Assembly (NCBI GenBank): GCA_037130365.1 | Contig: JBAXTE010000009.1 | Span: 4,452 to 68,451 of the forward strand | Source: Bacteroidota bacterium | GTDB taxonomy: Bacteria; Bacteroidota; Bacteroidia; Bacteroidales; WCHB1-69 | Direction of reading: 5' to 3' | Length of the DNA stretch: 64,000 nt | In this document: piece by piece, positions 4,336-42,411 of the stretch | How positions within the stretch are numbered: position 1 is the first letter of the stretch | How the letters are laid out: each line of letters starts with the position of its first letter | Program-made: the position numbers and the translations under genes | The notes under the pieces: generated by a model | Seen by the model: the letters and a program-made list of their open reading frames with translations, nothing else | Told to the model about the DNA's origin: nothing | Databases searched by the model: none

Positions 4336-4409
4336 GGCGGGATAGCTCAGTTGGTTAGAGCGTCGGATTCATAACCCGGAGGTCACGAGTTCAACTCTCG
4401 TTCCCGCTA
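4336..4409 (+). tRNA. tRNA-Met (anticodon CAU); a lysidine-modified tRNA-Ile2 cannot be excluded from sequence alone
   Basis: A cloverleaf folds by hand. The acceptor stem is GGCGGGA/TCCCGCT (G1:U72 wobble) and the D arm is GCTC-AGTTGGTTA-GAGC. The anticodon stem flanks the loop TTCATAA, the T arm is ACGAG-TTCAACT-CTCGT, and the discriminator is A. The D and T arms resemble elongator tRNA-Met. Confidence 0.9.
4358..4373 (+). repeat. 16-bp tRNA segment (D-stem 3' side to anticodon loop) that recurs at 23905-23920
   Basis: GAGCGTCGGATTCATA is an exact match to 23905-23920, and the match extends to 19 bp with one mismatch. Confidence 0.7.
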
Positions 4410-6009
4410 CAACAAGGGACTTTTCAGAAATACTCTGATTAAGTCCCTTTTCTTTTCCCTCTAAAACCCTTGTCAAATCACGGATGTAGCTAAAAAATGA
4501 GTTAATATTTTCGGTTAGATATACCCTTTTTTTCACATCTAACTTCAAACCATCAGGAAACACGATTTTTTGTATCATTCTTTTTGTTGAAATACTCCCA
4601 GACATCCAGTATTTACTAATGTTTTGAACTATCTCAAAAGAAATATTTATGTAATTTGAGAGGTTAGATATGTTGATTTTACTTTTCTCCAATTTGTCTT
4701 TAATTCCATTAATATTACCGTCTAATTCATTATTATATTTGTCAAAAAGAACTTTTGATAAGCCATCATAAACGTATTTTCGTTCCAAATCTTCTTTTTT
4801 ATTTACAAGTTCTGTGAGTTGTGTTTTTAAAAGTATTTCTTCAGTCGCACTCTCACTATTCATTGTATCAAATGTCTGTTTTAATTGCAGTTTAAACGGT
4901 TCTAAATAACGTTCTTCTAATTGGTAGGTGGCAAGTAAGTTTTTGAATAAATCATGAGCACCTTCTTTTTTTGCAAATGGAGTTGTGTTAGCGTTAATAC
5001 TAATCCCTTTGCATTTAAGGCATTTATAATAATGTACATTTTTCTTTTTGATAATATATCCTACCATTTTTGAACCGCATTCTGCGCAATATATATGTCC
5101 ATTTAGAGGTCTATCAGGATTTAGTTTTTCTTGCTTGTATATTGTTCGTTTTCCATCTAGCTTGTCATTTAAAGCTAAAAAATCCTCTTCTGAAACCATC
5201 TTTTGCCATCTGCCTTGTGCAACTTCACCACCGAGCATTTTATTGTTGCAAATCCCGCAATAAAAAGGGTTTCTCCAAAGTTTACTCAGTTTTTTTGCAT
5301 TGATTTTCAATCCCATTAGTAACAGCCTTTTTGAAATACTAACATCACTTTCGTTTTGCATTTTCCAGCCCCAAGCTTGTTGTAATAAGCACCCTATATC
5401 ATTTAAAACAATTTTTTGTTCTGGTCTTACTTTTGTGTAGTCTTTCACTCGTGGCCCATAATGGTCATATCCAAGTGGTACATTCCCAAGCCAGTTACCA
5501 TTTTCTAGGTGCTTTTTCATGCCTGGAATTGAAACCGCTAATTTGTTTAATGTTTCTTCTCTTGCCTTTAATAATTTGCCATACAAAGCCAATTTGCCTT
5601 CTTCTGTTAAAGTATTGTCACCAGAAGATACTTCAATAATATTTACGCCTATTTCATGTAGTTCAAAAGCCCATCTTACACCACCACCACCCGAACGAGA
5701 AAAGCGGCTCATTACATAAATCAATATCGCAAATGGTTTTTTCTTCATTTTTTTTATTTTCTCGATAAGGCGCATGAATTCTTTTCGTGAAATATCCCCA
5801 CTTGCACTTTCGTATGTGCCACCAAAATAGTCGGTTATGTTATAGTTGTTTGTTTTTGCATACTTTTCAGCTGCAATTTTTTGGTTTTCAAGGCTATGGT
5901 TTGTACTTTGGTCTTTCGATGAAACCCTAGTATACACCATTACACTCAAATTTTCCTCTTTTATTTCAATTGCACCTTTGGCAAATTTTTTAAATGCATC
6001 TAAGCTCAT
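4369..6009 (-). CDS. Large serine recombinase (integrase)
   Basis: 546 aa with an N-terminal resolvase-type catalytic domain and Ser nucleophile context (VMVYTRVSSKDQ). It also has a recombinase domain, a Cys-rich zinc ribbon (CAECGSKM...YYKCLKCKG) and a long helical C-terminal region. The last ~14 codons are the antisense of the tRNA-Met 3' half. Confidence 0.9.
   Translation of the reverse strand: MSLDAFKKFAKGAIEIKEENLSVMVYTRVSSKDQSTNHSLENQKIAAEKYAKTNNYNITDYFGGTYESASGDISRKEFMRLIEKIKKMKKKPFAILIYVMSRFSRSGGGGVRWAFELHEIGVNIIEVSSGDNTLTEEGKLALYGKLLKAREETLNKLAVSIPGMKKHLENGNWLGNVPLGYDHYGPRVKDYTKVRPEQKIVLNDIGCLLQQAWGWKMQNESDVSISKRLLLMGLKINAKKLSKLWRNPFYCGICNNKMLGGEVAQGRWQKMVSEEDFLALNDKLDGKRTIYKQEKLNPDRPLNGHIYCAECGSKMVGYIIKKKNVHYYKCLKCKGISINANTTPFAKKEGAHDLFKNLLATYQLEERYLEPFKLQLKQTFDTMNSESATEEILLKTQLTELVNKKEDLERKYVYDGLSKVLFDKYNNELDGNINGIKDKLEKSKINISNLSNYINISFEIVQNISKYWMSGSISTKRMIQKIVFPDGLKLDVKKRVYLTENINSFFSYIRDLTRVLEGKEKGLNQSISEKSLVVAGTRVELVTSGL
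4401..4412 (+). repeat. Left copy of the island direct repeat (attL core candidate)
   Basis: TTCCCGCTACAA is identical to 23828-23839, and the flanking bases differ on both sides. Confidence 0.75.
4414..4456 (+). terminator. Hairpin plus T-run directly after tRNA-Met, supplied by the island
   Basis: AAGGGACTT...AAGTCCCTT stem with an inner TCAG/CTGA pair, followed by TTCTTTT. It lies inside the 3' end of the antisense recombinase ORF. Confidence 0.6.
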
Positions 6010-10012: not shown

Positions 10013-10699
10013 ATGGGGGAATTAATTGAATCATTAAACAATAACGGGTCTGACCAATTTGGATTAGCATTGCTTTCATCAATCGAAGATTTGGGTTTAA
10101 GTATTTTATCTAAAACTGATTTCGAAACATTCATGTTTCATCATATCCTATTGCATCTAGATAAAACAAAAATTAAAAACAATTATGACCTAATGAGGTT
10201 GTTGAAAATCACTCCAAGCAAACTCAGAAGTTTGGAAATGAATAGGTCTGCAAAATTCCTTAATCTTGATTTGTCAAATATTGATAACTGGAGAATGATT
10301 TTTAATGCACTTGATGGCAAAAAGATAGAAACGGAGGATAAAGATAACGGCAAAGTACGAATCTATATTGAAGAATTACATGTACACCGACTAATTGAAA
10401 GATTTGTAGTTGAGGGTGGTTCATCAATAGATTACACTTTGAATAAGAATCAGTTAGTAATTAAATACACTGAGTTTTTATCATTATTAAATGCAATTTT
10501 AGTAAAAGCTAAAAAAGAACCTTTATTGACTGCTATAAATAAAGACAAAAGTCAATTTAAAGTTAAGAAAGAATTTGAGAGCTTTCAAAACATAATTTCG
10601 GATGTTAAGGAAGCAATGAAGGATGCGACATTTGAAAAAGCAGCTGAATTTGCATTAAACAAAATAATAAAAATTGCAAAAGACAAATTAGGATTATGA
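10013..10699 (+). CDS. Uncharacterised protein embedded between hsdR and hsdM
   Basis: 228-aa ORF that starts 2 nt after the hsdR stop and overlaps the hsdM start by 4 nt (ATGA). I recognise no motif in it. Confidence 0.8.
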   Translation: MGELIESLNNNGSDQFGLALLSSIEDLGLSILSKTDFETFMFHHILLHLDKTKIKNNYDLMRLLKITPSKLRSLEMNRSAKFLNLDLSNIDNWRMIFNALDGKKIETEDKDNGKVRIYIEELHVHRLIERFVVEGGSSIDYTLNKNQLVIKYTEFLSLLNAILVKAKKEPLLTAINKDKSQFKVKKEFESFQNIISDVKEAMKDATFEKAAEFALNKIIKIAKDKLGL

Positions 10700-12123
10700 G
10701 CAACATCGGAGGAGTAATAAAATCAATACGGGACATATTCAGAAAAGACCCTGGTTTGAGTGGCGATGCACAACGCATTGAGCAATTGGGATGGATGATT
10801 TTTTTAAAACTGTTTGATGATAAAGACAAGGAAAAGGAAATTCTTGATTTGAATTACAAATCCCCGATACCTGCAGAATTACAGTGGAGAAATTGGGCAG
10901 AAAACGATGAAGGAATCACAGGAGAAGAGCTTATCAATTTTGTGAATAACAAATTATTTCCCCAACTGAAGGAATTGCATATTACGGCAGACAACAGATT
11001 AGGCGTAATCATCCGTCAAATATTCGATGGAACCAACAATTATATGAAAAGTGGCACCACCTTTCGTCAGGCCATCAACAAACTCAACGAAATAGATTTC
11101 AATAGCAGCAAAGAACACCACGTGTTCAATGCAATCTATGAAGATATACTTCAAGGACTTGCCACCAAAAAAGACACAGGCGAATTTTATACACCAAGGG
11201 CAGTCACTCAATTTATCATCGACATGGTAAATCCAAAATTGAGCGAAAAAATTATTGACCCCGCATGTGGCACCGCTGGTTTTTTGGTTTGTGCCATAGA
11301 GCATTTGCGTAAGCAGGTAAACAATGTGGCAGACCGTAAAATATTGCAAGAAACCATAACAGGAACCGAATTGAAGCCGCTTCCGTTTATGTTGAGTATC
11401 ATCAACTTGATTACGCATGATATTGAAGTGCCAAAAATTGAGAATGACGATGCCTTGAGCCGTGAGTTAAGCTCCATTTCAAGAAAAGAGCAAGTGGATA
11501 TCATTGTTGCAAACCCTCCATTCGGTGGCGTGGTAGGTGATGGCATGGAAAACAACTTCCCGATGAACTTTCGCACCAAAGAGAGTGCCGACCTTTTTCT
11601 GATTTTGTTTATTCAACTGCTCAAAGATGGTGGCCGTGCTGGTATTGTATTACCCGATGGCAGCCTGACAGGTGATGGCGTAAAATCCAGAGTGAGAGAA
11701 AAACTATTGACCGATTGCAACCTGCACACCATTGTAAGGCTCCCACAGAGCGTATTTGCTCCCTATGCAACGGTAAACACCAATCTGTTGTTCTTTGCCA
11801 AAGGAACTCCCACAAAGGAGATTTGGTATTACGAACACGCATTGCCCGAAGGCTATAAAGCATACAGCAAAACGAAGCCGATTAAAATTGAGGAGTTCAA
11901 CGACATAAAAAAATGGTGGGACAACAGAACCGAAAGCGAAACCTGTTGGAAAGTCTCCATGGATACCATCAAAGAACGTGGGTTTGATTTAGACATCAAG
12001 AATCCAAATAAGGTTGTGGAAGAAGTGGAATTGAATATTATGAAAATTCTCGGAATTCTTAAATCTGAAAACAATAAAGTAAGCACAATTATCCAGGAAC
12101 TTGAAAACGATTTGGCTAAATGA
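10696..12123 (+). CDS. hsdM: Type I restriction-modification system, M subunit (N6-adenine DNA methyltransferase)
   Basis: 475 aa with a SAM-binding motif (IIDPACGTAGFL), catalytic motif IV (IVANPPFGG) and an HsdM N-terminal helical domain (QLGWMIFLKLFDD). Confidence 0.95.
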   Translation: MSNIGGVIKSIRDIFRKDPGLSGDAQRIEQLGWMIFLKLFDDKDKEKEILDLNYKSPIPAELQWRNWAENDEGITGEELINFVNNKLFPQLKELHITADNRLGVIIRQIFDGTNNYMKSGTTFRQAINKLNEIDFNSSKEHHVFNAIYEDILQGLATKKDTGEFYTPRAVTQFIIDMVNPKLSEKIIDPACGTAGFLVCAIEHLRKQVNNVADRKILQETITGTELKPLPFMLSIINLITHDIEVPKIENDDALSRELSSISRKEQVDIIVANPPFGGVVGDGMENNFPMNFRTKESADLFLILFIQLLKDGGRAGIVLPDGSLTGDGVKSRVREKLLTDCNLHTIVRLPQSVFAPYATVNTNLLFFAKGTPTKEIWYYEHALPEGYKAYSKTKPIKIEEFNDIKKWWDNRTESETCWKVSMDTIKERGFDLDIKNPNKVVEEVELNIMKILGILKSENNKVSTIIQELENDLAK

Positions 12124-13586
12124 CAATATTAGAACTATTTAAAAAAGTACATCCATCTGTATTAGCTGCCAAAATGATTTTTAAGCATTTGCAGGATAAT
12201 TACCCTGTTCTTAAAATATCTGACATTGCCGATACTTCAAGCGGGGGAACTCCAAATCGTGGAATGATTGAATTCTACAACGGTGATATTCCTTGGGTAA
12301 AATCAGGTGAATTAAAAGATGGCATAATAACAAAATGTGATGAATACATTACAGAAGCAGGATTAAAAAACTCTTCTGCAAAGTTATTTCCTAAAGGCAC
12401 TTTACTTGTTGCTATGTATGGTGCAAACATTGGGAAAACGGGTGTATTAGATTTTGATGCAACTACAAATCAAGCGGTCTGTGCAATATTTCCGAAAGTC
12501 GATATTTCAAAAGACTTCTTGTTTTGGTATTTCAAACAACAACGAATTGAATTTATAGCTATTGGCAAAGGTGGAGCACAGCCAAACATTAGCCAAACTA
12601 TAATTAATAATGCGTCAATTGTTGTGCCTGATGAAAAAACACAACAGAAAATTGTTGACTTCTTGGAAGCAATTGAACAAGGCAAAGGAATTGATGAAAA
12701 TTTCTTTATTCCCGAAGTGCTTGAAGATGTAGCACGAATTTACAAGTATAAGAACAACTATATAGATTTGTCTGTTAGCTTTGAAACCCAACTAACCCAA
12801 ATAGAAAACCTAAACCAAGCAATCTTACAAGAAGCGGTGCAGGGGAAATTGGTAAAGCAAGACCCCACAGACGAACCCGCAAGCCAACTACTCAAGCGCA
12901 TCAAAGCCGAAAAATTAAAATCTGGCAAAAAGGAAAAACCATTACCAGCCATCAAACCTGAAGAAATTCCGTTTGAAATCCCTGAAAATTGGATGTGGTG
13001 CAGGTTAGGCGATATTTGTTCAAAAATTGGCTCAGGGAGTACACCAAAAGGAAGTAATTATTCAAAAAATGGGTTCCCATTTTTTCGTTCACAAAACATC
13101 TATGACGAAGGTTTAGTTTATTTTGATATAAAATTTGTTTCAGAAGAAGTTCAAAAGCAAATGAATGGGACAATGGTACTTTCAAATGATATTCTTTTAA
13201 ATATTACAGGTGGTTCAATGGGACGTTGCGCAATAGTCCCAGATGACTTTAATCAAGGCAATGTAAGTCAGCACGTTTGTATAATCAGACCAATGGAAAT
13301 AGATAAAAAGTTTTTTCATAAAATTGTTTTATCTCCTTATTTTCAAAAAAAAGTTTTTGCTTCTACTACAGGTGCAGGTAGAGAAGGGTTGCCAAAATAC
13401 AATCTTGAAAGATTTGTTATTCCAATTCCACCACTATCCGAGCAAAAACGTATCGTATCTGAAATAGAAAAGCAATTAGCCAAAACCAAACAATTAAAGA
13501 TACACATTACAGCCAACCAACATGCCACCGAGCAACTGCTCAAAGCATTGTTGCATGGGGCTTTTGAGGTGGCGGAGGGCTTATGA
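12120..13586 (+). CDS. hsdS: Type I restriction-modification system, S (specificity) subunit
   Basis: 488 aa with two target-recognition domains (SGGTPNRG..., GSGSTPKGSNY...), each followed by a conserved helical spacer (IPIPPLSEQKRIVSEIEKQL). The start overlaps hsdM by 4 bp (ATGA). Confidence 0.93.
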   Translation: MTILELFKKVHPSVLAAKMIFKHLQDNYPVLKISDIADTSSGGTPNRGMIEFYNGDIPWVKSGELKDGIITKCDEYITEAGLKNSSAKLFPKGTLLVAMYGANIGKTGVLDFDATTNQAVCAIFPKVDISKDFLFWYFKQQRIEFIAIGKGGAQPNISQTIINNASIVVPDEKTQQKIVDFLEAIEQGKGIDENFFIPEVLEDVARIYKYKNNYIDLSVSFETQLTQIENLNQAILQEAVQGKLVKQDPTDEPASQLLKRIKAEKLKSGKKEKPLPAIKPEEIPFEIPENWMWCRLGDICSKIGSGSTPKGSNYSKNGFPFFRSQNIYDEGLVYFDIKFVSEEVQKQMNGTMVLSNDILLNITGGSMGRCAIVPDDFNQGNVSQHVCIIRPMEIDKKFFHKIVLSPYFQKKVFASTTGAGREGLPKYNLERFVIPIPPLSEQKRIVSEIEKQLAKTKQLKIHITANQHATEQLLKALLHGAFEVAEGL

Positions 13587-13661: not shown

Positions 13662-15623
13662 ATGAGTGAAATGTTAGCCGAAATAAGGCGAATTGTAAAC
13701 GAAGATATAAGTAGTCGTGTATCACAATATGATGTAATATTTGAAGCAATTACAAATGCAATTCATGCAAACGCAACAAATATAATTTGTACTTTTCATA
13801 CAGGAGAATATACTCTTAAAGAACATGATGTTATTGAAATTGCAAATAAGAAAGTTGATGATATAACAATTTTTGATAATGGAGATGGGTTTAACACTTC
13901 AAACTATAACTCCTTTTGTAAATACAGAACAGATTTAAAAAAGGATTTAGGTTGTAAAGGGGTCGGTCGGTTTGTGTTTTTAAAAGTGTATGACAATGTG
14001 CTTTATAAAAGCCAAATTGCAGATGAACAAATAGAAAAAGTGTTTAAGTTTAATCTTGACTTTAAAACAGAAAATATCAGTACCACTGAAACTAAAATTG
14101 AATCAAATACCACTGAATTATTTTTAAAAGGGTTAACTTCACAATACATTGATTATGATAAACATATAAATAGACGAATTGATTTGGATTTGGAAATAAT
14201 TCGTGAAAAGGTGTTGCTAAATCTAATCCCTACATTGTTTTTTTACAAAAAGAAAGGTGTTTTAATTAAAATAGACTTTGTTGATAGTACAACGTCTAAT
14301 ACTCTATCAATACTGGATTCAGATATTCCAGATTTTTTTGAAACACCATTTAAAATTACGGATAAAAACGGATTTAAATATGGCTTTACTTTAAATCATC
14401 GAATAGAGAAAGAGAGCGGTAAATTAAATGCATTTTATTGCGCAAACAATAGAACCGTATGCGAATTTTCAGATAAAGATTTTAAATTATCATTGCCTTA
14501 TGGCTATTCAGGTTACATGCTTTTAGAGTCGAACTATTTTGATTCTAAAGTAAATCACGAAAGAAATAATTTTGATATATTTCCTTTTAAAACAGATGCA
14601 TTTTCGCTTGTTTCTTGGGAAATGATAAATGCTAAACTCAAGTCAGTCATATCTGAAATTGTCAAGGAAGGTATTCCTGAAACAAATAAAATCAATCAGG
14701 AAAAATTAGAAGAAATTCAAAATGAAAGACCTTATTTGGTTAGCTATATCAATGAAGAAGATATTGACATGGCTGGTTTTTTAGATAAAAAACATCTTAT
14801 AGAGAAAGCAAAAAAACGTTTTGATGTTGAAAAAGAAAAACTGTTGACATCGGCTGGAAAAGAATCATACACAGATGAAGAATTGAGCGATGCAATAGAG
14901 ATTACACAAAACGAATTAGTATCATATATAAACGATAGAGCACAAGTTTTGGAACGATTACGAACCTTGCTAAACAAAAAAGAAAGAGTAGAATCCATAA
15001 TCCATAATTTGTTTATGGAAAGATATTCAGATGATGATTATTTTTCTGTCGGTAAAAATAATTTATGGTTATTAGATGATAGATTCACAACATATAGTTA
15101 TGCAGCCAGTGAAAAAAGGATTGCAGAAGTATTAAAACAAATAGGAGAAGAGTCCGAAGATGTTGAAATTTCCGATGACCGTCCCGATTTATCTCTTTTC
15201 TTTTCACATAATCCAAATTCGCCAGAGCGCTTAAAATCGGTACTTGTTGAGATTAAGCCATTTGATTATCAATCAAAATCAGATAGAAAAAAGTTTGCAG
15301 GCATTCAGCAATTAGTAGATTATGTGAAAGCTTTTAAAACAAAAGAAAATTTAGAAGAGATATTTGCATTTCTAATAACCGATATTGATGAAAAGCTTAC
15401 CACTCGATTAAAAGACAATGATTTCATTCCTTTGTTTTCAACTGAATCTCCAATTTTTCATAAGTTTTTCAATACACTTGGAATTTCTATATATGTTATA
15501 AGTGCTCACACTCTAATTAAAGATGCAGAAGCACGCAACAAAGTATTTCTGGACATTATAAGAAAACAAAGCAGGCTAAATAAGATATTACAATCAAATG
15601 AAGCAACTTTGATTTTAGAATAA
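13662..15623 (+). CDS. GHKL-superfamily (Bergerat-fold) ATPase with a C-terminal PD-(D/E)xK-like module
   Basis: 653 aa. The GHKL motifs are N-box FEAITNAIHA, DxGxG as FDNGDGF and GxxGxG as GCKGVGRF. Near the C-terminus, RPDLSLFF-x-VLVEIKP gives a literal PD...ExK spacing (D-x20-E-x-K). Confidence 0.75.
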   Translation: MSEMLAEIRRIVNEDISSRVSQYDVIFEAITNAIHANATNIICTFHTGEYTLKEHDVIEIANKKVDDITIFDNGDGFNTSNYNSFCKYRTDLKKDLGCKGVGRFVFLKVYDNVLYKSQIADEQIEKVFKFNLDFKTENISTTETKIESNTTELFLKGLTSQYIDYDKHINRRIDLDLEIIREKVLLNLIPTLFFYKKKGVLIKIDFVDSTTSNTLSILDSDIPDFFETPFKITDKNGFKYGFTLNHRIEKESGKLNAFYCANNRTVCEFSDKDFKLSLPYGYSGYMLLESNYFDSKVNHERNNFDIFPFKTDAFSLVSWEMINAKLKSVISEIVKEGIPETNKINQEKLEEIQNERPYLVSYINEEDIDMAGFLDKKHLIEKAKKRFDVEKEKLLTSAGKESYTDEELSDAIEITQNELVSYINDRAQVLERLRTLLNKKERVESIIHNLFMERYSDDDYFSVGKNNLWLLDDRFTTYSYAASEKRIAEVLKQIGEESEDVEISDDRPDLSLFFSHNPNSPERLKSVLVEIKPFDYQSKSDRKKFAGIQQLVDYVKAFKTKENLEEIFAFLITDIDEKLTTRLKDNDFIPLFSTESPIFHKFFNTLGISIYVISAHTLIKDAEARNKVFLDIIRKQSRLNKILQSNEATLILE

Positions 15624-15675
15624 AAAATACTTCTTGTTTCAAACCCCATTTATCAAACAAAAAAACAATAAGCAA

Positions 15676-16095
15676 ATGGAAACAACAGATGAACTATTGA
15701 GATATATTAAAACTCATGTGCCAAACTTTTCAAATCCTAAAATTATTAGCAGTGGTGTGGCTTATCACTATACAATGCATTCAGATTTAATTCAAAAAGA
15801 TGGGCGTATAAAAGGTAGAATAATTGATGAAAATATTGATTGCTCACAGAATGATTTTGTTTCTATTCCAGCGACAGAGAACAATGGTGTTGTTTTCGCA
15901 TATGAAAGTTTAGTAGAATCTAAATTGGAAGCTTTCGTTTTACCTGAAGATAAACAAAGAATTAAAATTATAAAAAATGATTATAATTCAGCTGTATACG
16001 CAAATCATCAGCAGGAAGTTGATTATACTGGTGCCCCACCAACAATTATTATTTTGGCTCATGAGATAACAAATTTTCAAATTATTTATCCTTAA
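15676..16095 (+). CDS. Small hypothetical protein (139 aa)
   Basis: The ORF is co-directional and lies 11 nt upstream of the next gene. I prefer the ATG at 15676 over the non-ATG start at 15634 in the track. I recognise no motif in it. Confidence 0.7.
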   Translation: METTDELLRYIKTHVPNFSNPKIISSGVAYHYTMHSDLIQKDGRIKGRIIDENIDCSQNDFVSIPATENNGVVFAYESLVESKLEAFVLPEDKQRIKIIKNDYNSAVYANHQQEVDYTGAPPTIIILAHEITNFQIIYP

Positions 16096-16106: not shown

Positions 16107-16799
16107 ATGACTTATATTGTAGCAGGTAAATTAAGCTCATGCACATGTCTCATGGCAGATTGTATTGTTAATAGAACAGGTGATACTCCTATATTCACTG
16201 ACAAAATACGTAAACTTACCAGTTCAGATGATACGTTTTTTTCTGTAACGGGTAACTGTTTAATTCCCGAATCTGTTGAAATATTGGATATGTGGTTATT
16301 TTCTTTAGGCAGACCAAATGACTTTATTTCAGGTAATAATAGTATAACTGATTTAGTGAAGTTAATATCATGGCGTTTTGATAAATATCATCGTACAGAT
16401 GGTGCAAAATTAGATAACAATCGAATATTCTTTATTAATCGTGATTCTGTAATTTACTATAATTTATTTTATAATGAAAATAATCTCCTTACATCTAATC
16501 TTGCTAAAACAGTATTACAGAATAAAAAACAAATTACCAATATGTCGCCCCATCCTATATCATTTGATTTGATTTCTACAAGTAATCCACTACGCTATTG
16601 TAAATCAGTTATTGATGATTTAGCAAAATCGGAAAATAAAGATTTGAAAGACCGTTTTTCATATATTCAACTTAATAGTGATTCTGATGACATTATTATT
16701 TCACCTTTTAAGAAAATATCTGACATAGTTGCAGCTTATGAGGGGGCTGATTATAATCTTTTAGATGATATTTCTTTATCATGGGATGAAATAAAATAA
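16107..16799 (+). CDS. Hypothetical protein with a proteasome-beta/HslV-like N-terminal-nucleophile signature
   Basis: 230 aa starting MTYIVAG...CLMADCIV...DKIRKL...FFSVTGN. After Met removal this gives Thr1, Asp17 and Lys32. HslV and proteasome beta subunits have Thr1/Asp17/Lys33, with the same alternation of hydrophobic strands. Confidence 0.45.
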   Translation: MTYIVAGKLSSCTCLMADCIVNRTGDTPIFTDKIRKLTSSDDTFFSVTGNCLIPESVEILDMWLFSLGRPNDFISGNNSITDLVKLISWRFDKYHRTDGAKLDNNRIFFINRDSVIYYNLFYNENNLLTSNLAKTVLQNKKQITNMSPHPISFDLISTSNPLRYCKSVIDDLAKSENKDLKDRFSYIQLNSDSDDIIISPFKKISDIVAAYEGADYNLLDDISLSWDEIK

Positions 16800-16896: not shown

Positions 16897-17847
16897 ATGA
16901 ATGCTGAAATTAAATATATTGACATCTTAGATAGAAAAGCTGATTATGAATTGATTTATAAAGAAACATTTAGAACAGAATTGGGTCTAAGAGCAATATC
17001 AATAATGTATGATGAACATTCCAATGATAAGAAATCACATGACAATATTTTGAGATTTAAAGACAACATTCAATACAGGCTTTTTTCAGCAACTCATCAA
17101 TATTTAGTTCTATTAAAAGAGTTATGGGGGGCAGAATCTTATTTGCAAAATCTGTATAAAAAAAATCCTCGATATATTAATTCTTTCCCATTTGAAAATC
17201 CTTTTTTTGATAAAGTAGAACAAGAATTATCATCTGTTTTTGATAATGTAATTTTTCAAGTAACTTCAATTTTTGATTATTTAAGTCATATCGTGTGTTA
17301 TATCACTTTTACAAATAAAACAAATACTCTATATTGGACTAAACTTGCAAGAGCATCAAGAGGTCAAAATAATGATTTTTCAAACATTGAATTGAAAAAT
17401 ATAATAGACATTGTGGATAGGCGTTTTGTTGGTAAGCTTTATGATTATCGCTCACGATTAATTCACGATAAAAGAGATAGACACATTTTTAATGCTCAAG
17501 CAAAATTGATTGATTTCCAATTTAATTTACAATTGCTACCTTCTGATGTCGCTCTTAAACACTTTAAGCTCATAAAAGAGGAGATACCTGTAGGTGCAGA
17601 TGTTACGCTAACATATCTAGCATCATGGTTGATTAAAAGAGCATTTTTTGAAATTGAAACTATACTGGATGTGTTGTCAATTGAATTAAAAAAAGGGTCA
17701 AACTTCCACAGTAATTTGATAAACCCAAAAAGAGGTGATGATGCATTATTGTTTATAACAATGAATCCTGAAACAAGACAAGTTGAACCATTATCAAATG
17801 GTCTATGGAAGGAATATAAAGAAAAAACCAAATCAGTGAAACAGTAG
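16897..17847 (+). CDS. Hypothetical protein with an Rx4H (HEPN-like) motif
   Basis: 316 aa, predicted mostly helical. The motif LYDYRSRLIHDKRD contains R-x4-H, the minimal HEPN RNase signature. There is no other support. Confidence 0.35.
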   Translation: MNAEIKYIDILDRKADYELIYKETFRTELGLRAISIMYDEHSNDKKSHDNILRFKDNIQYRLFSATHQYLVLLKELWGAESYLQNLYKKNPRYINSFPFENPFFDKVEQELSSVFDNVIFQVTSIFDYLSHIVCYITFTNKTNTLYWTKLARASRGQNNDFSNIELKNIIDIVDRRFVGKLYDYRSRLIHDKRDRHIFNAQAKLIDFQFNLQLLPSDVALKHFKLIKEEIPVGADVTLTYLASWLIKRAFFEIETILDVLSIELKKGSNFHSNLINPKRGDDALLFITMNPETRQVEPLSNGLWKEYKEKTKSVKQ

Positions 17848-17860
17848 CAAAATCGACTCT

Positions 17861-19606
17861 ATGAAAACAAACTCCAATAATAGCTCCATTAGCTATATGC
17901 AATTACTAGAATTTAAATTAGTCTTTCCAGATGAAATACCGTTGTCCGTTGATGAGTATCTTAAAGGTAGTAATAGGGGGGATATACTAAATGCTGCTTC
18001 TCATTTTCTAGGTTTTAACCCCAATAATTCAAAAATATTAGATAATAGGGAGTTTTTAAGTAATTTTTTTTGCGCTGAAAACAATGATTTAGCTAACTAT
18101 GTTTATGGTGTAATTAAAAATATCGAGAAAACAGGCACAAAAGTGGGGGTAATCAATCCATATTCAAGTCTATCATTGTTTGAATGTTGTTATAAAAATG
18201 AAGAAAAAGAAGAAACACAATCAAATTCTGATTTTGAAATAAATCTCTTTAAAGCATATCTTGTATTAAACTCTCAATTTACAAGTAAGCAAAAAATTGC
18301 ATTTACTTCAACCCAAGATTTACATCCATTATTGATAAATCCCATGGAATTGTTTTGTATGCAATATCCGCTTGCTGATAAAGTAAATTACGACATCAAT
18401 AGGATATGGGTAAATCAGATGTTAAAAGCAACTCATTTATTTGTATTTCTTGAATCCAATGAGAAAACAGCACCTTTACTTAAAGCTTTTCTTGAGTTTT
18501 TTAATAAAAAAAACTGGCAAGATTTTTTAAAAAGCCTACTTCCTTTAACCAATCCAATGAAATATGCAGATAATGAAGGATTTATTGATTTTGGTGTAAA
18601 TAAGAATGATGATTTTCAAGGAAGTTGCTTGTTTATTGAAAAGTTTATTGTTGATGAAAATGATAGTTTTGATGAAAATGATTTTCTTAGTATTCGGGGT
18701 AAACCTTTTTATAAAGTTGAGGATGGAGTCTATCGGGTAATTTTTCCTTTATTTGTTGTCGAAAAGATATTTAAAGGATTGTATTTTTATTTAAGTGAAG
18801 TTAATAAAACGTTAGATAAGCCATTTGGAAATATCAAAAGCTTTTATGGTGGTGAGTTTTCTGAAAATATCCTGCTTTACAATGTAATGGGAAGCATCTG
18901 GAATAATAAATGTTGTAAGTTTTCAGGCAAACAGATTTCTGAAATGAAAATTGACGGGTTTATTGATTATTATGTTAGAAAAGGGAAAAATATTTTATTG
19001 TTTGAGTCCAAAGATTTTCTTATTAAAGCAGACAAAAAAGCTTCTTTTGATTTTAATATTTATGAGAAAGAATTTAAAAAGTTACTCTACTATGAAGACA
19101 TGCCAAATGGCAAAAGGAAACCAAAAGCTGTAATTCAATTAATAAATAGTATTCGCAAAATACTTAGAAGAGAGTTTGCCGCTGATAAAGATTATAAATA
19201 TCGTGAAGTAAATATTTACCCAATTCTAATAATTCATGATTCCCAATACGATGTGCCAGGTTTTAATTTTCTTATAAATTATTGGTTTCAGCAGGAGATA
19301 GCGTCACTAAAAGAAGAAGGGGTGTATACTCATAATATTAAACCACTTGTGGTTATTAATATTGATTCACTTTTATATTATCAAGTCGCTCTTGCAGAAA
19401 ACACACCACTCCACAATATTATAAATCAGTATGAAATTCAAACGAAAGGTTCAATAAATGACAAATCGGGGTTCGATAATAAGAAATTTGATAAATATAT
19501 TCCTTTTTCATATTTCATTGATGATTTTTTCAAGAATAAAGGCATTGCAAAATTCCCTCCCTTATTGGATTTTGTAGCCCCATTGTTATTCAGTAATGAT
19601 AAATAA
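17861..19606 (+). CDS. Large hypothetical protein with a C-terminal PD-(D/E)xK-like motif
   Basis: 581 aa. KIDGFIDYYVRKGKNILLFESKDF gives D-x12/16-E-x-K preceded by a hydrophobic strand. It starts 13 nt after the previous gene. Confidence 0.45.
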   Translation: MKTNSNNSSISYMQLLEFKLVFPDEIPLSVDEYLKGSNRGDILNAASHFLGFNPNNSKILDNREFLSNFFCAENNDLANYVYGVIKNIEKTGTKVGVINPYSSLSLFECCYKNEEKEETQSNSDFEINLFKAYLVLNSQFTSKQKIAFTSTQDLHPLLINPMELFCMQYPLADKVNYDINRIWVNQMLKATHLFVFLESNEKTAPLLKAFLEFFNKKNWQDFLKSLLPLTNPMKYADNEGFIDFGVNKNDDFQGSCLFIEKFIVDENDSFDENDFLSIRGKPFYKVEDGVYRVIFPLFVVEKIFKGLYFYLSEVNKTLDKPFGNIKSFYGGEFSENILLYNVMGSIWNNKCCKFSGKQISEMKIDGFIDYYVRKGKNILLFESKDFLIKADKKASFDFNIYEKEFKKLLYYEDMPNGKRKPKAVIQLINSIRKILRREFAADKDYKYREVNIYPILIIHDSQYDVPGFNFLINYWFQQEIASLKEEGVYTHNIKPLVVINIDSLLYYQVALAENTPLHNIINQYEIQTKGSINDKSGFDNKKFDKYIPFSYFIDDFFKNKGIAKFPPLLDFVAPLLFSNDK

Positions 19607-19636
19607 GCCAATAGTCAATATTATAAAAATAATTAT

Positions 19637-20620
19637 ATGCTAAGATTTAACCGTTATCTAAGCGATGATGCTTTTAAATTCCTGAAAAATAAAGGGTCGT
19701 GGATAATCCCCGAAATAATAAATGCTAGGCCATTTAATTGCGCTTTTGCTTTTGATATTCAAATTAGGGAAAACGATTATTTGATGGTTTATGTAGGAAC
19801 CACAAGTGTTCTTAAGATTCAATTAGGTGCAGATTTTGTAAATTTCTCAGCACATAAAACTTATAAGGATAGTTTCCTGAAAAAATACTTATTTACTGAT
19901 TTGCCTTATGGTGAAATCAGTAATTACCTTGGTCGGATTCTTCCAAAAGTGGATTCAAGATATTTTGAAAATCACAAAGAAGGCTATTATCAAAATTACT
20001 TATGTTATCATTTGGGGGAAGTTGCAAGCAAAGATTCTCCATTTATTATTTTTGATAGAGAATGTGTTTTAGGTTTCGATAATAGCAATGAAAAAATAAA
20101 TCATCTGACACCATTGAAAAATAAATATGAACAAATTAGAACCGATTTACAAGAAAATAATTCAAAAAGATGGGGTATGCCAAAGTTAAAATCACTGGGA
20201 GACGAGTTGGATATGTTGGCCATTGATAATAATTGCAATCTCATTTGTATAGAATTAAAACATTCATTAAATGGTTCTGGTATTTATTGGACTCCGCTTC
20301 AAGTTTCATTATATCGAGACGCATTTGAAAGTGCTAACAATCAAGTTGTTTTTGATAGCATTAAGAAAATAATCTCTCAAAAAGCAGAATTAGGACTTTT
20401 ACCTGATTGTGTAAATAGTATCATGGATAAAAACAATTCATTCAATAAAATCATTTCACTTGTTGCAGTAGGAGGAGAGGTGAACAAAAAAATGAGTTGT
20501 TGGAGTAAATTTGAAGAAGTATGTGCTAAAAGTCCAAAAGATTTACAAAACCAAATATTTGTTTTCAATGAGAATAATTTAGGTAATTACATGTCAGTAA
20601 TTAGTGGAGTATTGGGCTAA
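19637..20620 (+). CDS. Hypothetical protein with a PD-(D/E)xK nuclease-like core (Shedu/NucS-style D...hhhhELK pattern)
   Basis: 327 aa. GDELDMLAIDNNCNLICIELKHS matches the D-x(8-13)-E-x-K pattern with a preceding beta-strand-like stretch. This is the last gene of the co-directional cluster. Confidence 0.45.
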   Translation: MLRFNRYLSDDAFKFLKNKGSWIIPEIINARPFNCAFAFDIQIRENDYLMVYVGTTSVLKIQLGADFVNFSAHKTYKDSFLKKYLFTDLPYGEISNYLGRILPKVDSRYFENHKEGYYQNYLCYHLGEVASKDSPFIIFDRECVLGFDNSNEKINHLTPLKNKYEQIRTDLQENNSKRWGMPKLKSLGDELDMLAIDNNCNLICIELKHSLNGSGIYWTPLQVSLYRDAFESANNQVVFDSIKKIISQKAELGLLPDCVNSIMDKNNSFNKIISLVAVGGEVNKKMSCWSKFEEVCAKSPKDLQNQIFVFNENNLGNYMSVISGVLG

Positions 20621-21645
20621 TACGCCATAACTTAAAACAAGCAGAAAATTCATAGGTAGAAAGTAACTAACAATAATGGAAGCACGAGTAAAATTTTAGC
20701 ATTCCCTCCCACAAACCAAAAGCAGGTAATAAATCGTCCTCTGCCTCCGAAAATCAGCACCAGCCTGCAAAATCCCCGCCCTTCACTTAAAATGAAGCGT
20801 TCAGGGCTTGCTTGGTCTTTTCCAGGCTTCCCCACAGCATCCCACAGTTGTTTTTTTCTGTCACACTTCTTGCAAAATTATCCCACATGGCACATTGCTT
20901 TCCCGAAAAAAGCAATAAGCCAACCATCCCACAAAAGCAAAAAGGCGCTACATTCCAACCACCACCACCATTCCGCTTGTGCCAGAAATAAAACAACCCA
21001 AAGCTAAATAACATAATGTGGCATTATAGTATATTCCCGATGGGCTCCACTACGTTACGGGGTTGCCACCCAATATCCTATAAAAACATTATATTAAATA
21101 GCCGCACAGGCATCCCACAGTTCCCACTCCGTTGCCACAAATCCCCACCGCCCATTTATAAGGTGTAGGGTAAGTAAAGCATAAAATTTTATGGCAAAGT
21201 GCTTAAAAGCAGGTTCATTCGCTCTCACTACGTTACGTTTCGGACACTCCGTTCATTTCGCTTTGCTACAATCACTACATTATCCTTCACTACACTTTGC
21301 ATTCGTTCATTTCTCCAGCGCAGCACCGCACAGCAAAAGTGCCTCACTCATTCCACTCCACAATCAAAACCAACAAATCTTTCACTACGCATCTACAGGC
21401 ATAATTTAAACATTTTTAAATAAACAAAATTCTATAAAGCAAATTATACCTGACAGTTGCTACGTTCAAACCTTAAATCAATTGTTTCGTTACATTCAAT
21501 CACCACCCTTGCTCATCCATCCCACATATAACAAGGTATGCTTTACTTCCCCCACTAAGTATTTGTCCCCTTTATGCTCATAATACCTCTCATAATTTAG
21601 GTACAGTTATTGTTTATTTAAGCTATTGAAATTCAATTTTAAACT
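20621..21645. other. ORF-free, C-rich (plus strand) region of about 1 kb with recurring short motifs; candidate structured ncRNA, protein-binding array or decayed foreign DNA
   Basis: No ORF exceeds 75 aa in any frame, even though the region is visibly less AT-rich than its surroundings. ATCCCACA occurs five times (20839, 20880, 20926, 21112, 21519). CACAG(G)CATCCCACAGTT occurs twice (20833, 21105). CACTACGTTACG occurs twice (21048, 21226). CGTTCATTTC occurs twice (21250, 21304). TCACTAC occurs four times. Confidence 0.6.
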
Positions 21646-23904: not shown

Positions 23905-23920
23905 GAGCGTCGGATTCATA
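23905..23920 (+). repeat. Isolated copy of the tRNA-Met anticodon-arm segment, 65 bp outside the island's right repeat
   Basis: GAGCGTCGGATTCATA is an exact match to 4358-4373. The downstream sequence (TCCGTATATGC...) shows no continuation of the tRNA. Confidence 0.7.
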
Positions 23921-24106
23921 TCCGTATATGCTAAAATATTAGGCTCATTTAAGATAAAAATTAAAAATTTTCACCTTTTGAATTTAACCTATTTTTCCCT
24001 ACCTTTGGCTAAACAATTATGATTTAAATCTTCGTAATCAAGATTCATTGTATATTTCAATTTTAAAAAAGTAATTACACCCAAAACATCTGATAGAAAA
24101 AATAAC

Positions 24107-42277: not shown

Positions 42278-42285
42278 TAATTTTG
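42278..42285 (+). promoter_or_regulatory. -7 promoter box (TAATTTTG) for SRP RNA
   Basis: TAATTTTGCAC ends 2 nt before the start of the RNA helix (42290). The 11-mer is identical to the one upstream of tRNA-Met. Confidence 0.55.
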
Positions 42286-42289
42286 CACT

Positions 42290-42386
42290 GGGTAAGTCTT
42301 ATACGACCAGCTCCTATTGAACTCCCCCAGGTCCGGAAGGAAGCAAGGGTAATTTGGTTGAGCGGTGCGATATAAGTAGCTTACCC
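42290..42386 (+). ncRNA. ffs: Signal recognition particle RNA (small, 4.5S-type)
   Basis: The terminal helix is GGGTAAG...CTTACCC. The conserved domain IV core CCAGGTCCGGAAGGAAGCA is present, and a T-run follows. Confidence 0.9.
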
Positions 42387-42411
42387 ATTTTTTATTTAAA
42401 TTTTATGGGTT

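What the first reader, a model, noticed from the sequence alone, without database searches (positions are those of the whole stretch)
16107..16799. Proteasome/HslV-like N-terminal-nucleophile signature in a defence-island protein
The ORF begins MTYIVAGKLSSCTCLMADCIVNRTGDTPIFTDKIRKL...FFSVTGN. After Met removal, a Thr sits at position 1, an Asp at 17 and a Lys at 32. HslV and proteasome beta subunits use Thr1, Asp17 and Lys33, with the same strand-like hydrophobic pattern (TTIV.....VV.A.D....G.......K.V..L......G.AG). There is no propeptide, as in HslV. No AAA+ unfoldase partner is obvious, although the adjacent GHKL ATPase is an ATPase of a different fold. I am not aware of a threonine peptidase of this type as a described defence module.
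Basis: inference. Interest (0 to 1): 0.7.

Follow-up and report, generated by a model that had tools for sequence, protein, structure and literature searches.

The report
Stand-alone proteasome-like threonine hydrolase in defence island
This 230-residue gene encodes a previously unannotated relative of the proteasome/HslV protease subunits with the full catalytic signature, and it and its rare relatives ride alone, without an unfoldase partner, on mobile islands that usually carry anti-phage defence genes.

Summary
ORF 16107-16799 (+) can only start at the ATG that gives Met-Thr. Thr2, Asp18 and Lys33 (Thr1/Asp17/Lys32 after Met removal) are present.

An exhaustive search found only 68 family clusters, none named or in Pfam, NCBIfam, PHROGs or PADLOC. 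Among 60 aligned members only three columns are invariant: Asp18, Lys33 and Gly49. Met1 is 59/59 and Thr2 is 57/59, with Ser in the other two. These are the proteasome Thr1/Asp17/Lys33/Gly47 positions.

An AlphaFold2 model (pLDDT 94.8, pTM 0.91) matches 20S proteasome subunits, Anbu and the mycobacterial proteasome in Foldseek (811 PDB hits at E <= 1e-3, best 2.5e-7). Sequence-only evidence is marginal.

No neighbouring gene is conserved across 13 loci, so neither the GHKL ATPase nor any AAA+ protein is a dedicated partner. Six loci carry known defence genes nearby (Type I, Type II and Type ISP R-M, pAgo, Gabija, Tiamat), and most carry recombinases or transposases. A shorter branch sits among phage-like genes.

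Verdict: a real, probably active, new subfamily of proteasome-like Ntn hydrolases. A defence role is plausible but rests only on gene neighbourhood.

The parts
16107..16799 (+). Gene for the 230-aa proteasome-like Ntn hydrolase (stop codon included)
   Evidence: ORF list and sequence. AF2 model with pLDDT 94.8. Foldseek hits to 20S proteasome subunits and Anbu.
16107..16112 (+). Start Met plus Thr2 codons. Thr2 is the predicted N-terminal nucleophile (Thr1) once Met is removed.
   Evidence: M1 59/59; T2 57/59 plus 2 Ser. No alternative upstream start. The Met-Thr/Ser pair is kept even in members with called extensions.
16158..16160 (+). Asp18 codon (equivalent of proteasome Asp17), at the end of strand S2
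   Evidence: 60/60 invariant. Aligns with Asp17 of E. coli HslV and with the Asp of PDB 8adn_N.
16203..16205 (+). Lys33 codon (equivalent of proteasome Lys33), just before strand S3
   Evidence: 60/60 invariant. In register with Lys33 of HslV and 8adn_N.
16251..16253 (+). Gly49 codon (equivalent of the Gly47 oxyanion-hole residue), just after strand S4
   Evidence: 60/60 invariant. Aligned with the Gly of 'SG' in 8adn_N.
16641..16667 (+). Conserved D-x-K-x-R-F-S/T-F motif (residues 179-187) between the last core helix and strand S9. It is a candidate counterpart of the proteasome Asp166-x-x-Ser169 region (inference).
   Evidence: Column counts: D179 36/58, K181 40/58, R183 45 plus 9 K, F184 46, S185 42 plus 9 T. 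Secondary structure.
4336..6009 (.). Left end of the mobile island that carries the gene: tRNA-Met (4336-4410, +) and a 546-aa large serine recombinase ORF (4369-6009, -)
   Evidence: ARAGORN and Rfam. ORF with the YTRVSSKDQ motif.
23905..23923 (+). 18/19-nt copy of the tRNA-Met anticodon arm (4358-4376). It is the putative right-hand attachment repeat and bounds a ~19.5-kb island.
   Evidence: the repeat finder family D12 and alignment.

Best explanation
The gene encodes a member of a rare, unannotated subfamily of proteasome-like N-terminal-nucleophile hydrolases.

Shown here:
- The protein starts Met-Thr.
- The only invariant residues of the family are those at the proteasome positions Asp17, Lys33 and Gly47, and the N-terminal Thr (Ser in two members) is nearly invariant.
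- The predicted structure is the proteasome-subunit sandwich: S1-S4, H1-H2, S5-S8, H3/H4, S9-S10 plus a C-terminal helix.
- The gene has no conserved neighbour. It occurs as single-gene cargo on integrated mobile elements, about half of which carry known anti-phage systems next to it.

Inferred mechanism:
- Methionine aminopeptidase removes Met1, since Thr is a permissive second residue. E. coli HslV likewise begins MTTIV.
- The free alpha-amino group and the hydroxyl of Thr1, with Lys33 and Asp17 as the proton relay and the Gly47 backbone amide as the oxyanion hole, attack a peptide bond.
- The enzyme is therefore a threonine peptidase, or possibly a transpeptidase like connectase. It works without a dedicated AAA+ unfoldase, as proposed for Anbu, BPH and the other orphan proteasome homologues.

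Most likely biological role (inference, about 45%): a stand-alone conflict or defence gene of mobile islands that cleaves a phage or host protein during infection. It is not a subunit of the neighbouring GHKL ATPase, the R-M system, pAgo or Gabija.
For: ORF and start codon.

Family size and lack of annotation:
- 68 clusters at 50% identity among 1.84 billion representatives.
- No Pfam, NCBIfam, PADLOC or PHROG hit.
- No source gives a name.

Catalytic positions: D18, K33 and G49 are 60/60; T2 is 57/59 plus 2 Ser; M1 is 59/59.

Structure:
- The AF2 model built from the 60-sequence alignment, without templates, has pLDDT 94.8 and pTM 0.91.
- Foldseek against PDB gives 811 hits at E <= 1e-3. All of the top 50 are 20S proteasome subunits, Anbu or the Mtb proteasome; the best has E 2.5e-7, probability 1.00 and TM 0.5-0.58.
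- BFVD hits include phage proteins annotated as proteasome or HslV.

Sequence-level matches:
- The family HMM's only PDB hit below E 0.1 is a proteasome beta-1 chain (8adn_N, E 0.0067). Family Thr2 aligns to that chain's Thr22, and the Asp, Lys and Gly are in register.
- hhalign to E. coli HslV puts M1, T2, D18 and K33/34 in register.

No conserved partner: all-against-all BLASTP of neighbours in 13 loci.

Defence context:
- Window: Type I R-M.
- pAgo ending 10 nt upstream in L005.
- Gabija GajA/GajB in L006.
- HsdR in L009.
- Type ISP enzyme plus Tiamat TmtA in L013.
- Bse634I and a methylase, plus a weak Peptidase_U49 hit, in L017.

Mobility: serine recombinase and tRNA repeat in the window; integrases, resolvase or transposases in L006, L015, L017 and L023.

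Literature: the catalytic definition (Thr1/Ser1, Asp17, Lys33, Gly47) and the absence of AAA+ partners for orphan homologues are described in PMC8665760. Four literature searches found no paper linking a proteasome-like protein to phage defence.
Against: - Sequence-profile support for homology is weak. There is no PF00227 hit for any of 60 members. hhalign against an archaeal beta-subunit profile is not significant. hhalign to HslV gives E 0.072. A smaller family profile loses the PDB hit. The assignment therefore rests on a predicted, not solved, structure plus the residue pattern.
- Foldseek TM-scores are moderate (0.5-0.58, rmsd over 5 A), so the fold is divergent.
- Counterparts of Ser129, Asp166 and Ser169 could not be mapped with certainty. 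The window protein has Asn145 where 9 of 10 close homologues have Ser.
- Oligomeric state is unknown. Isolated proteasome subunits are inactive unless assembled (PMC8665760).
- The defence role is association only. Seven of 13 loci show no known defence gene. A shorter branch lies among phage-like genes, which fits counter-defence or phage functions equally well.
- No member was found in cultured phages, plasmids or IMG/VR. The gene's ecology is therefore known only from metagenomes.
Confidence: 0.75

Rival explanations
1. It is the effector or an accessory subunit of whichever system lies immediately upstream: the GHKL ATPase operon here, pAgo in L005, Gabija in L006. In this reading it is a modular protease effector that different sensors plug into.
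For: - The gene follows the upstream gene by only 11 nt in the window, 10 nt after pAgo in L005, 10 nt in L012 and 57 nt after gajB in L006. It is always on the same strand, which is compatible with co-transcription.
- Catalytically inactive pAgos are known to use co-encoded effectors (PMC10620215, listed).
Against: - The upstream partner differs in every locus, and several loci have no recognisable sensor.
- Gabija and Type I R-M are complete systems without it.
- The two pAgo surveys I checked mention no protease or proteasome-like associated protein.
- The L005 contig is only 1185 nt, so pAgo linkage is seen once.
Confidence: 0.15
2. It is an active proteasome-like hydrolase with no role in defence. 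It would be a mobile-element or phage gene used for the element's own biology, such as processing an element protein, counter-defence or host takeover. It would appear in defence islands only because those are the general cargo regions of integrated elements.
For: - The short branch (P0070-P0074) is a lone gene inside a run of small genes, several of which hit PHROGs.
- Phage-borne proteasome homologues (PPH, AAH) are documented (PMC8665760), and BFVD contains structural relatives.
- Seven of 13 loci have no known defence gene nearby.
- Most loci have recombinases or transposases.
Against: - Six of 13 independent loci place it within a few kb of six different kinds of known defence system. I judge this higher than expected for a random accessory gene, but I did not measure the background.
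- The family has no match in 50,697 phage genomes or in IMG/VR.
Confidence: 0.3
3. [quoted passage not shown]
For: - There is no unfoldase partner.
- The family has a unique C-terminal extension and long H1-H2 helices.
- Connectase shows that this catalytic set can act as a ligase (PMC7980362, listed; PMC8665760).
Against: - Connectase lacks helices H1/H2 and has a two-helix insertion between S3 and S4 that covers the active site. This protein has H1 and H2 and no such insertion.
- Connectase chains are not among the top 50 Foldseek hits.
Confidence: 0.12
4. The resemblance is a chance motif in a protein of unrelated fold, or the protein is a catalytically dead scaffold.
For: Pfam, NCBIfam and hhalign give no significant match.
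Against: - The only invariant columns of the family coincide with all four defining catalytic positions.
- The template-free model has pLDDT 94.8 and retrieves 811 proteasome-family chains.
- Inactive subunits (alpha, beta3/4/6/7) lose Thr1, whereas this family keeps it in 59/59 members (Thr or Ser).
Confidence: 0.04

Closest known systems
20S proteasome beta subunits (MEROPS T1, Pfam PF00227)
   Same: - Same predicted fold; these give the best Foldseek E-values.
- Thr1, Asp17, Lys33 and Gly47 sit at the same positions relative to strands S1-S4.
- A C-terminal helix after S10 resembles H5.
   Different: - No significant sequence-profile match.
- No propeptide: Thr directly follows the start Met.
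- No alpha subunit and no AAA+ or Mpa/PAN partner nearby.
- No clear GSG (Ser129) motif.
- It is an accessory gene on mobile elements rather than a core housekeeping gene.
HslV (ClpQ) of the HslUV protease
   Same: - Bacterial, single gene.
- Thr exposed by Met removal alone (E. coli HslV starts MTTIV).
- Thr, Asp and Lys are in register in the hhalign alignment.
   Different: - No hslU next to it in any of 13 loci.
- 230 aa versus 176 aa, with longer H1/H2 and a C-terminal extension.
- HslV chains are not among the top 50 PDB structural matches.
- The profile match is not significant (E 0.072).
Anbu, BPH and the 22 orphan proteasome homologues of Fuchs, Alva and Lupas 2021 (PMC8665760)
   Same: - Prokaryotic proteasome-like proteins that keep Thr1/Ser1, Asp17, Lys33 and Gly47, lack propeptides and have no co-occurring AAA+ partner.
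- Anbu chains give the highest query-normalised TM-scores, 0.50-0.57.
- Several of those families also occur in Bacteroidetes or in phages.
   Different: - Those authors reported no informative genomic context. This family recurs beside R-M, pAgo, Gabija and Tiamat genes.
- No ATP-grasp or transglutaminase-type neighbours, which my own knowledge associates with the Anbu operon, turned up in the Pfam annotations of any locus.
- The family's only NCBI records are three MAG assemblies, so it was probably not in the database they searched (inference).
Connectase (archaeal proteasome-like protein ligase)
   Same: An orphan, partner-less proteasome homologue with an N-terminal Thr. It shows that the catalytic set can serve a highly specific, non-degradative reaction.
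   Different: Connectase lacks H1/H2 and has an S3/S4 helical lid. It is restricted to methanogens and is linked to MtrA. None of this applies here.
Single-gene protease defence or exclusion proteins such as Lit (Peptidase U49)
   Same: A stand-alone protease gene on a mobile element in a defence context. A weak Peptidase_U49 hit lies next to a family member in L017. That Lit cleaves EF-Tu on phage infection comes from my own knowledge.
   Different: Lit is a zinc metallopeptidase of unrelated fold. No functional data exist for the present family.

Membership tests
Proteasome-like Ntn hydrolases (proteasome beta / HslV / Anbu / BPH superfamily) | Thr (or Ser) nucleophile as the first residue of the mature chain | tested here: met
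   The ORF can only start at the Met-Thr ATG. M1 is 59/59; T2 is 57/59 plus 2 Ser. Met removal itself is inferred, not measured.
Proteasome-like Ntn hydrolases (proteasome beta / HslV / Anbu / BPH superfamily) | Asp17 and Lys33 completing the catalytic triad | tested here: met
   D18 and K33 (numbered with Met) are invariant in 60/60 members. They are in register with 8adn_N and E. coli HslV.
Proteasome-like Ntn hydrolases (proteasome beta / HslV / Anbu / BPH superfamily) | Gly47 oxyanion-hole residue after strand S4 | tested here: met
   G49 is invariant in 60/60 and lies directly after model strand E43-48.
Proteasome-like Ntn hydrolases (proteasome beta / HslV / Anbu / BPH superfamily) | Alpha-beta-beta-alpha sandwich with S1-S10 and H1-H4 topology | tested here: met
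   The AF2 model has pLDDT 94.8 and pTM 0.91, with the expected order of elements. Foldseek gives 811 PDB hits at E <= 1e-3, and all of the top 50 are proteasome family. This is a predicted structure, not an experimental one.
Proteasome-like Ntn hydrolases (proteasome beta / HslV / Anbu / BPH superfamily) | Significant sequence-profile match to the family (Pfam PF00227 or HMM-HMM) | tested here: not met
   No Pfam hit for the protein or for any of 60 members. HMM against PDB gives one marginal hit, E 0.0067, which is lost with a smaller profile. hhalign is not significant.
Proteasome-like Ntn hydrolases (proteasome beta / HslV / Anbu / BPH superfamily) | Supporting active-site residues Ser129, Asp166 and Ser169 | tested here: inconclusive
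   A conserved D-x-K-x-R-F-S/T motif (residues 179-185) and a partly conserved I-D/N-S motif (around 143-145) lie at the topologically expected places. No reliable residue-level alignment or model coordinates were available.
Proteasome-like Ntn hydrolases (proteasome beta / HslV / Anbu / BPH superfamily) | Assembly into hexameric or heptameric stacked rings; peptidase activity sensitive to proteasome inhibitors | not testable with these tools
   No multimer prediction or biochemistry was possible.
HslV specifically | Operon or co-occurrence with the AAA+ unfoldase HslU | tested here: not met
   No HslU or other conserved AAA+ neighbour in 13 loci. In E. coli, hslU directly follows hslV.
One of the 22 named orphan proteasome homologue clusters (Fuchs et al. 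2021) | Clustering by sequence with the representative of a named cluster (e.g. AAH, CPH, PMI-1/2/4/6, which occur in Bacteroidetes) | not testable with these tools
   Only accession numbers are given in the paper, and the supplement holds no sequences. The representatives could not be fetched.
Known anti-phage defence systems (PADLOC-DB v2) | Match to a model of a known or candidate defence protein | tested here: not met
   The only hit is a spurious 12.6-bit match to a Type I specificity subunit model.
pAgo-associated effectors | Consistent co-encoding with a prokaryotic Argonaute | tested here: not met
   Seen in one locus only (L005; pAgo C-terminus PDLC02385, E 1.4e-44). The other 12 loci have no pAgo.

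The most novel reading that the evidence does not exclude
A partner-less, proteasome-like threonine protease is a new kind of single-gene anti-phage (probably abortive-infection) module. It would be spread by mobile islands in Bacteroidota and mirrored by a phage-borne branch. It would also be the first orphan bacterial proteasome homologue with an assigned biological role, showing that proteasome-type catalysis was recruited to prokaryotic immunity.
Probability: 0.35. Interest if true: 0.85.

Novelty: new variant of a known kind. Interest (0 to 1): 0.66.

Why it matters
Bacterial proteasome homologues other than HslV and the actinobacterial 20S (Anbu, BPH and 22 further clusters) have no known function. 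Their discoverers found no informative gene context (PMC8665760).

This family does have a context. It is single-gene cargo on integrated elements and sits repeatedly beside restriction-modification, Argonaute, Gabija and Tiamat genes. That gives a directly testable hypothesis, infection-triggered threonine proteolysis, for one branch of this enigmatic superfamily.

It would also add a catalytic class not yet represented among described defence effectors. Known protease effectors are, to my knowledge, serine, cysteine or metallo enzymes.

The protein is small, has no required partner and has a fully defined catalytic set. Mutagenesis, inhibitor tests with existing proteasome drugs and phage challenge are all straightforward.

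Tried and rejected
- Single-sequence searches of Pfam, NCBIfam, PADLOC, PHROGs and PDB found nothing meaningful.
- The word-indexed homologue search found only one relative. The exhaustive representative search was needed.
- The first AF2 run, with two sequences, was useless (pLDDT 36.8).
- Pfam scans of all 60 members gave no common family.
- hhalign against E. coli HslV was in register but not significant. hhalign against an 18-member archaeal beta-subunit profile was not significant and partly out of register, even after trimming propeptides and trying local and global modes.
- A smaller family profile against PDB lost significance.
- GHKL ATPase as partner: rejected, since it is absent from all other loci.
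- Conserved downstream partner (316 aa here, 286 aa in L006): rejected, since there is no similarity.
- Looking for the family in GTDB genomes gave 1 locus, JGI metagenome contigs 3 loci, and cultured phages, PLSDB plasmids and IMG/VR none.
- The promoter and terminator scan gave nothing above the shuffled background, so transcription units are undefined.
- Literature searches for a proteasome-like or Ntn defence protein found none. The two pAgo surveys mention no protease partner.
- The supplement of Fuchs et al. holds no sequences, so assignment to their clusters was impossible.
- PADLOC and Pfam on neighbours in L010, L011, L015, L021 and L023 found no known defence genes there.
Full report
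**1. The observation**

The ORF lies at 16107-16799 on the + strand. It encodes 230 residues beginning MTYIVAGKLSSCTCLMADCIVNRTGDTPIFTDKIRKL. Reading upstream in frame, a TGA lies at 16062 and no ATG, GTG or TTG lies between it and the ATG at 16107. Thr is therefore necessarily the second residue.

Thr2, Asp18, Lys33 and Gly49 correspond to Thr1, Asp17, Lys32 and Gly48 after Met removal.

**2. The family**

The protein alone matches nothing in Pfam, NCBIfam, PADLOC, PHROGs or PDB sequences. The word-indexed search of 5.8 billion proteins found one relative (P0002, 36% identity). The exhaustive phmmer search of 1.84 billion cluster representatives found 68 clusters, 38 of them at E <= 1e-10. 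None carries a name from any source. No member hits a common Pfam family.

In a 60-member alignment (A2) only three columns are invariant: Asp18, Lys33 and Gly49. Other well-conserved columns:

| Column | Conservation |
|---|---|
| Met1 | 59/59 |
| Thr2 | 57/59, the other two Ser |
| Gly7 | 58/59 |
| Asp61 | 57/60 |

Thirty-eight of the 59 members with an N-terminus start at the aligned Met. The 21 members with called extensions of 15-79 residues all keep Met-Thr or Met-Ser at the aligned site. This argues for miscalled starts rather than propeptides.

The residues the family cannot change are therefore those that define the proteasome active site: Thr1/Ser1, Asp17, Lys33 and the Gly47 oxyanion hole (PMC8665760).

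**3. The fold**

With two sequences AlphaFold2 failed (pLDDT 36.8). With the 60-sequence alignment and no templates it gave pLDDT 94.8 and pTM 0.91. The order of elements is the proteasome-subunit topology plus an H5-like helix:

- strands 4-8, 12-18, 35-37 and 43-48
- helices 52-66 and 78-98
- strands 105-110, 115-120, 134-136 and 141-144
- helices 155-159 and 161-174
- strands 184-190 and 196-198
- helix 204-212

Asp18 ends S2, Lys33 precedes S3 and Gly49 follows S4, as in the proteasome.

Foldseek against PDB returned 811 chains at E <= 1e-3. All 50 listed are 20S subunits (yeast, human, Plasmodium, microsporidian, Mycobacterium) or Anbu. The best has E 2.5e-7, probability 1.00 and TM 0.5-0.58. 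BFVD returned 14 phage proteins at E <= 1e-3. The annotated proteins in the list, some of them above that cut-off, are labelled proteasome or HslV.

**4. Limits of the sequence evidence**

- The family HMM's only PDB hit below E 0.1 is proteasome beta-1 of Vairimorpha (8adn_N, E 0.0067). The family Thr aligns to that chain's Thr22, and the Asp, Lys and Gly are in register.
- hhalign to E. coli HslV, fetched from NC_000913, aligns M1, T2, D18 and K33/34 in register but with E 0.072.
- hhalign to a profile of 18 archaeal beta subunits is not significant in any mode.
- A 10-member profile loses the PDB hit.

Membership of the superfamily therefore rests on the predicted structure plus the catalytic pattern, not on sequence statistics.

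**5. Context in the window**

The gene sits in a same-strand array:

| Coordinates | Feature |
|---|---|
| 7557-10010 | hsdR |
| 10013-10699 | unknown 228-aa ORF |
| 10696-12123 | hsdM |
| 12120-13586 | hsdS |
| 13662-15623 | GHKL ATPase (PF13589, E 1.4e-5) |
| 15634-16095 | 153-aa ORF |
| 16107-16799 | the Ntn gene, 11 nt after the 153-aa ORF |
| up to 20620 | three further unknown ORFs |

The array lies between two landmarks. On the left are tRNA-Met (4336-4410) and a 546-aa large serine recombinase ORF. On the right is an 18/19-nt copy of the tRNA anticodon arm at 23905-23923. I estimate such a G+C-rich match at about 3e-5 expected by chance. This indicates a ~19.5-kb integrated island. A Bacteroidales-type small SRP RNA places the host in Bacteroidales.

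**6. Context elsewhere**

Twelve further distinct loci were recovered.

Loci with known defence genes nearby:

- L005: a pAgo ends 10 nt upstream (PADLOC PDLC02385, E 1.4e-44, on the 78 visible residues).
- L006: Gabija GajA/GajB ends 57 nt upstream, on an integrase-bearing element.
- L009: a Type I HsdR.
- L013: a Type ISP enzyme upstream and Tiamat TmtA (E 6e-228) downstream.
- L017: a truncated ComM-like gene, a weak Peptidase_U49 hit, a resolvase, Bse634I and a C5 methylase.

Loci without known defence genes:

- L015: two tyrosine integrases and a transposase.
- L023: a DDE transposase.
- L021: a DUF4325/PIN pair.
- L010, L011, L012 and the P0004 contig: nothing recognisable.

All-against-all BLASTP of every reading frame within 9 kb found no neighbour shared between loci. 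The only shared features were generic restriction-helicase, integrase, HTH and ABC domains. The 316-aa gene downstream here and the 286-aa gene downstream in L006 are unrelated. The family has no obligate partner. In particular, the GHKL ATPase is not one, and no AAA+ unfoldase is either.

A divergent branch of about 200 residues (P0070-P0074) is a lone gene on the opposite strand within a run of small genes, several of which hit PHROGs. The family therefore also occurs on phage-like DNA. No member exists in 50,697 phage genomes, PLSDB plasmids or IMG/VR. Only one was found in the GTDB species representatives, an uncultured Bacteroidales MAG.

**7. Mechanism**

Shown: the start at Met-Thr, the conservation of the catalytic set, the fold (predicted) and the lack of a conserved partner.

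Inferred:

- Methionine aminopeptidase exposes Thr1, as it must in E. coli HslV, which begins MTTIV.
- Thr1, Lys33 and Asp17, with the Gly47 amide, hydrolyse or transfer a peptide bond.
- Activity may require oligomerisation, as in the proteasome.
- The conserved D-x-K-x-R-F-S/T motif (179-185) lies where beta subunits have Asp166-x-x-Ser169. This mapping is tentative.
- The window protein has Asn145 where 9 of 10 close relatives have Ser.

The biological role I consider most likely is a stand-alone conflict or defence protease, because six of 13 independent loci place it beside six different kinds of known defence system on mobile islands. This is association only. I put it at about 45%, against about 30% for a non-defence mobile-element or phage function and about 15% for an accessory or effector role for the adjacent system.

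**8. Comparison with what is known**

The superfamily is well known. Fuchs, Alva and Lupas (2021, PMC8665760) catalogued 22 orphan prokaryotic clusters in addition to HslV, Anbu, BPH and connectase. These share the same four catalytic residues, lack propeptides and have no AAA+ partner. The authors state explicitly that no genomic context suggested a function.

I could not test whether the present family equals one of their clusters, because only accession numbers are published and the supplement holds no sequences. Its only NCBI records are three MAG assemblies, which makes a new cluster likely.

Four literature searches found no paper linking a proteasome-like or Ntn protein with phage defence. 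Two pAgo surveys mention no protease partner.

**9. Verdict**

It is corrected on the GHKL partner and the expected Pfam hit. The defence role remains open.
- Novelty: a new variant (subfamily plus context) of a known kind.
- Interest 0.66. The finding is real, unannotated, rare and easy to test, and it offers the first contextual clue for an orphan proteasome homologue. The defence role is unproven, and orphan proteasome homologues as such are already described.

Noticed in passing
window 4336-6009 and 23905-23923: tRNA-Met (4336-4410) overlaps the 3' end of a 546-aa large serine recombinase ORF (4369-6009, minus strand). An 18/19-nt copy of the tRNA anticodon arm recurs at 23905-23923. Together these suggest a ~19.5-kb element integrated at tRNA-Met that carries the whole defence array.
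   Followed up: partly
window 10013-10699: A 228-aa ORF with no family match is wedged between hsdR and hsdM of the Type I R-M operon. It starts 3 nt after the hsdR stop and overlaps the hsdM start by 4 nt. In L009 an unrelated 211-aa ORF also follows hsdR.
   Followed up: partly
window 13662-16095: A 653-aa GHKL-type ATPase (PF13589, E 1.4e-5) is followed by a 153-aa ORF. Neither matches any PADLOC model. They may form a separate uncharacterised system and are not conserved next to the Ntn family elsewhere.
   Followed up: partly
window 16897-20620: Three further same-strand ORFs (316, 581 and 327 aa) have no Pfam or NCBIfam family. The 327-aa protein has only weak hits to PADLOC PDC-S11 and HerA models and to SUKH-1 (E about 1e-3). 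They may be additional unknown island cargo.
   Followed up: no
window 20650-21640: A stretch of about 1 kb has no convincing ORF and strong strand asymmetry (GC skew -0.32, C-rich). It has repeated CATCCCACA and CACTACGTTACG motifs. Rfam gives no match even at E <= 1. This could be an unknown non-coding RNA or an array of binding sites inside the island.
   Followed up: partly
L005 1-945: The closest homologue (P0002) starts 10 nt after the stop of a prokaryotic Argonaute gene (C-terminal 78 residues; PADLOC PDLC02385, E 1.4e-44). The contig is only 1185 nt, so the rest of the locus is unseen.
   Followed up: partly
L019 7555-8169 and L020 4049-4663: A shorter branch of the family (about 200 aa, P0070-P0074) is a lone plus-strand gene within a long run of small minus-strand genes, several with PHROG hits. 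All five members share a conserved 15-residue sequence, MGL(I/V)ATNKW.IK.KN, in front of MTYIVGGK. This could be a real propeptide or an upstream miscall.
   Followed up: partly
L017 8600-15727: The family member P0016 lies between a truncated ComM-like Mg-chelatase/AAA+ gene (a possible island insertion site) and a cluster of four genes: a weak Peptidase_U49 (Lit-like) hit, a resolvase, a Bse634I-type restriction enzyme and a C5 DNA methylase.
   Followed up: no
window 16539-16541 (Asn145): The window protein has Asn at a position where 9 of 10 close homologues have Ser, within an I-D/N-S motif after strand S8. This is a candidate counterpart of proteasome Ser129. It may matter for activity of this particular copy.
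   Followed up: no
window 42283-42390: A Bacteroidales-type small SRP RNA (Rfam RF04183, 98.7 bits) identifies the host lineage as Bacteroidales.
   Followed up: yes
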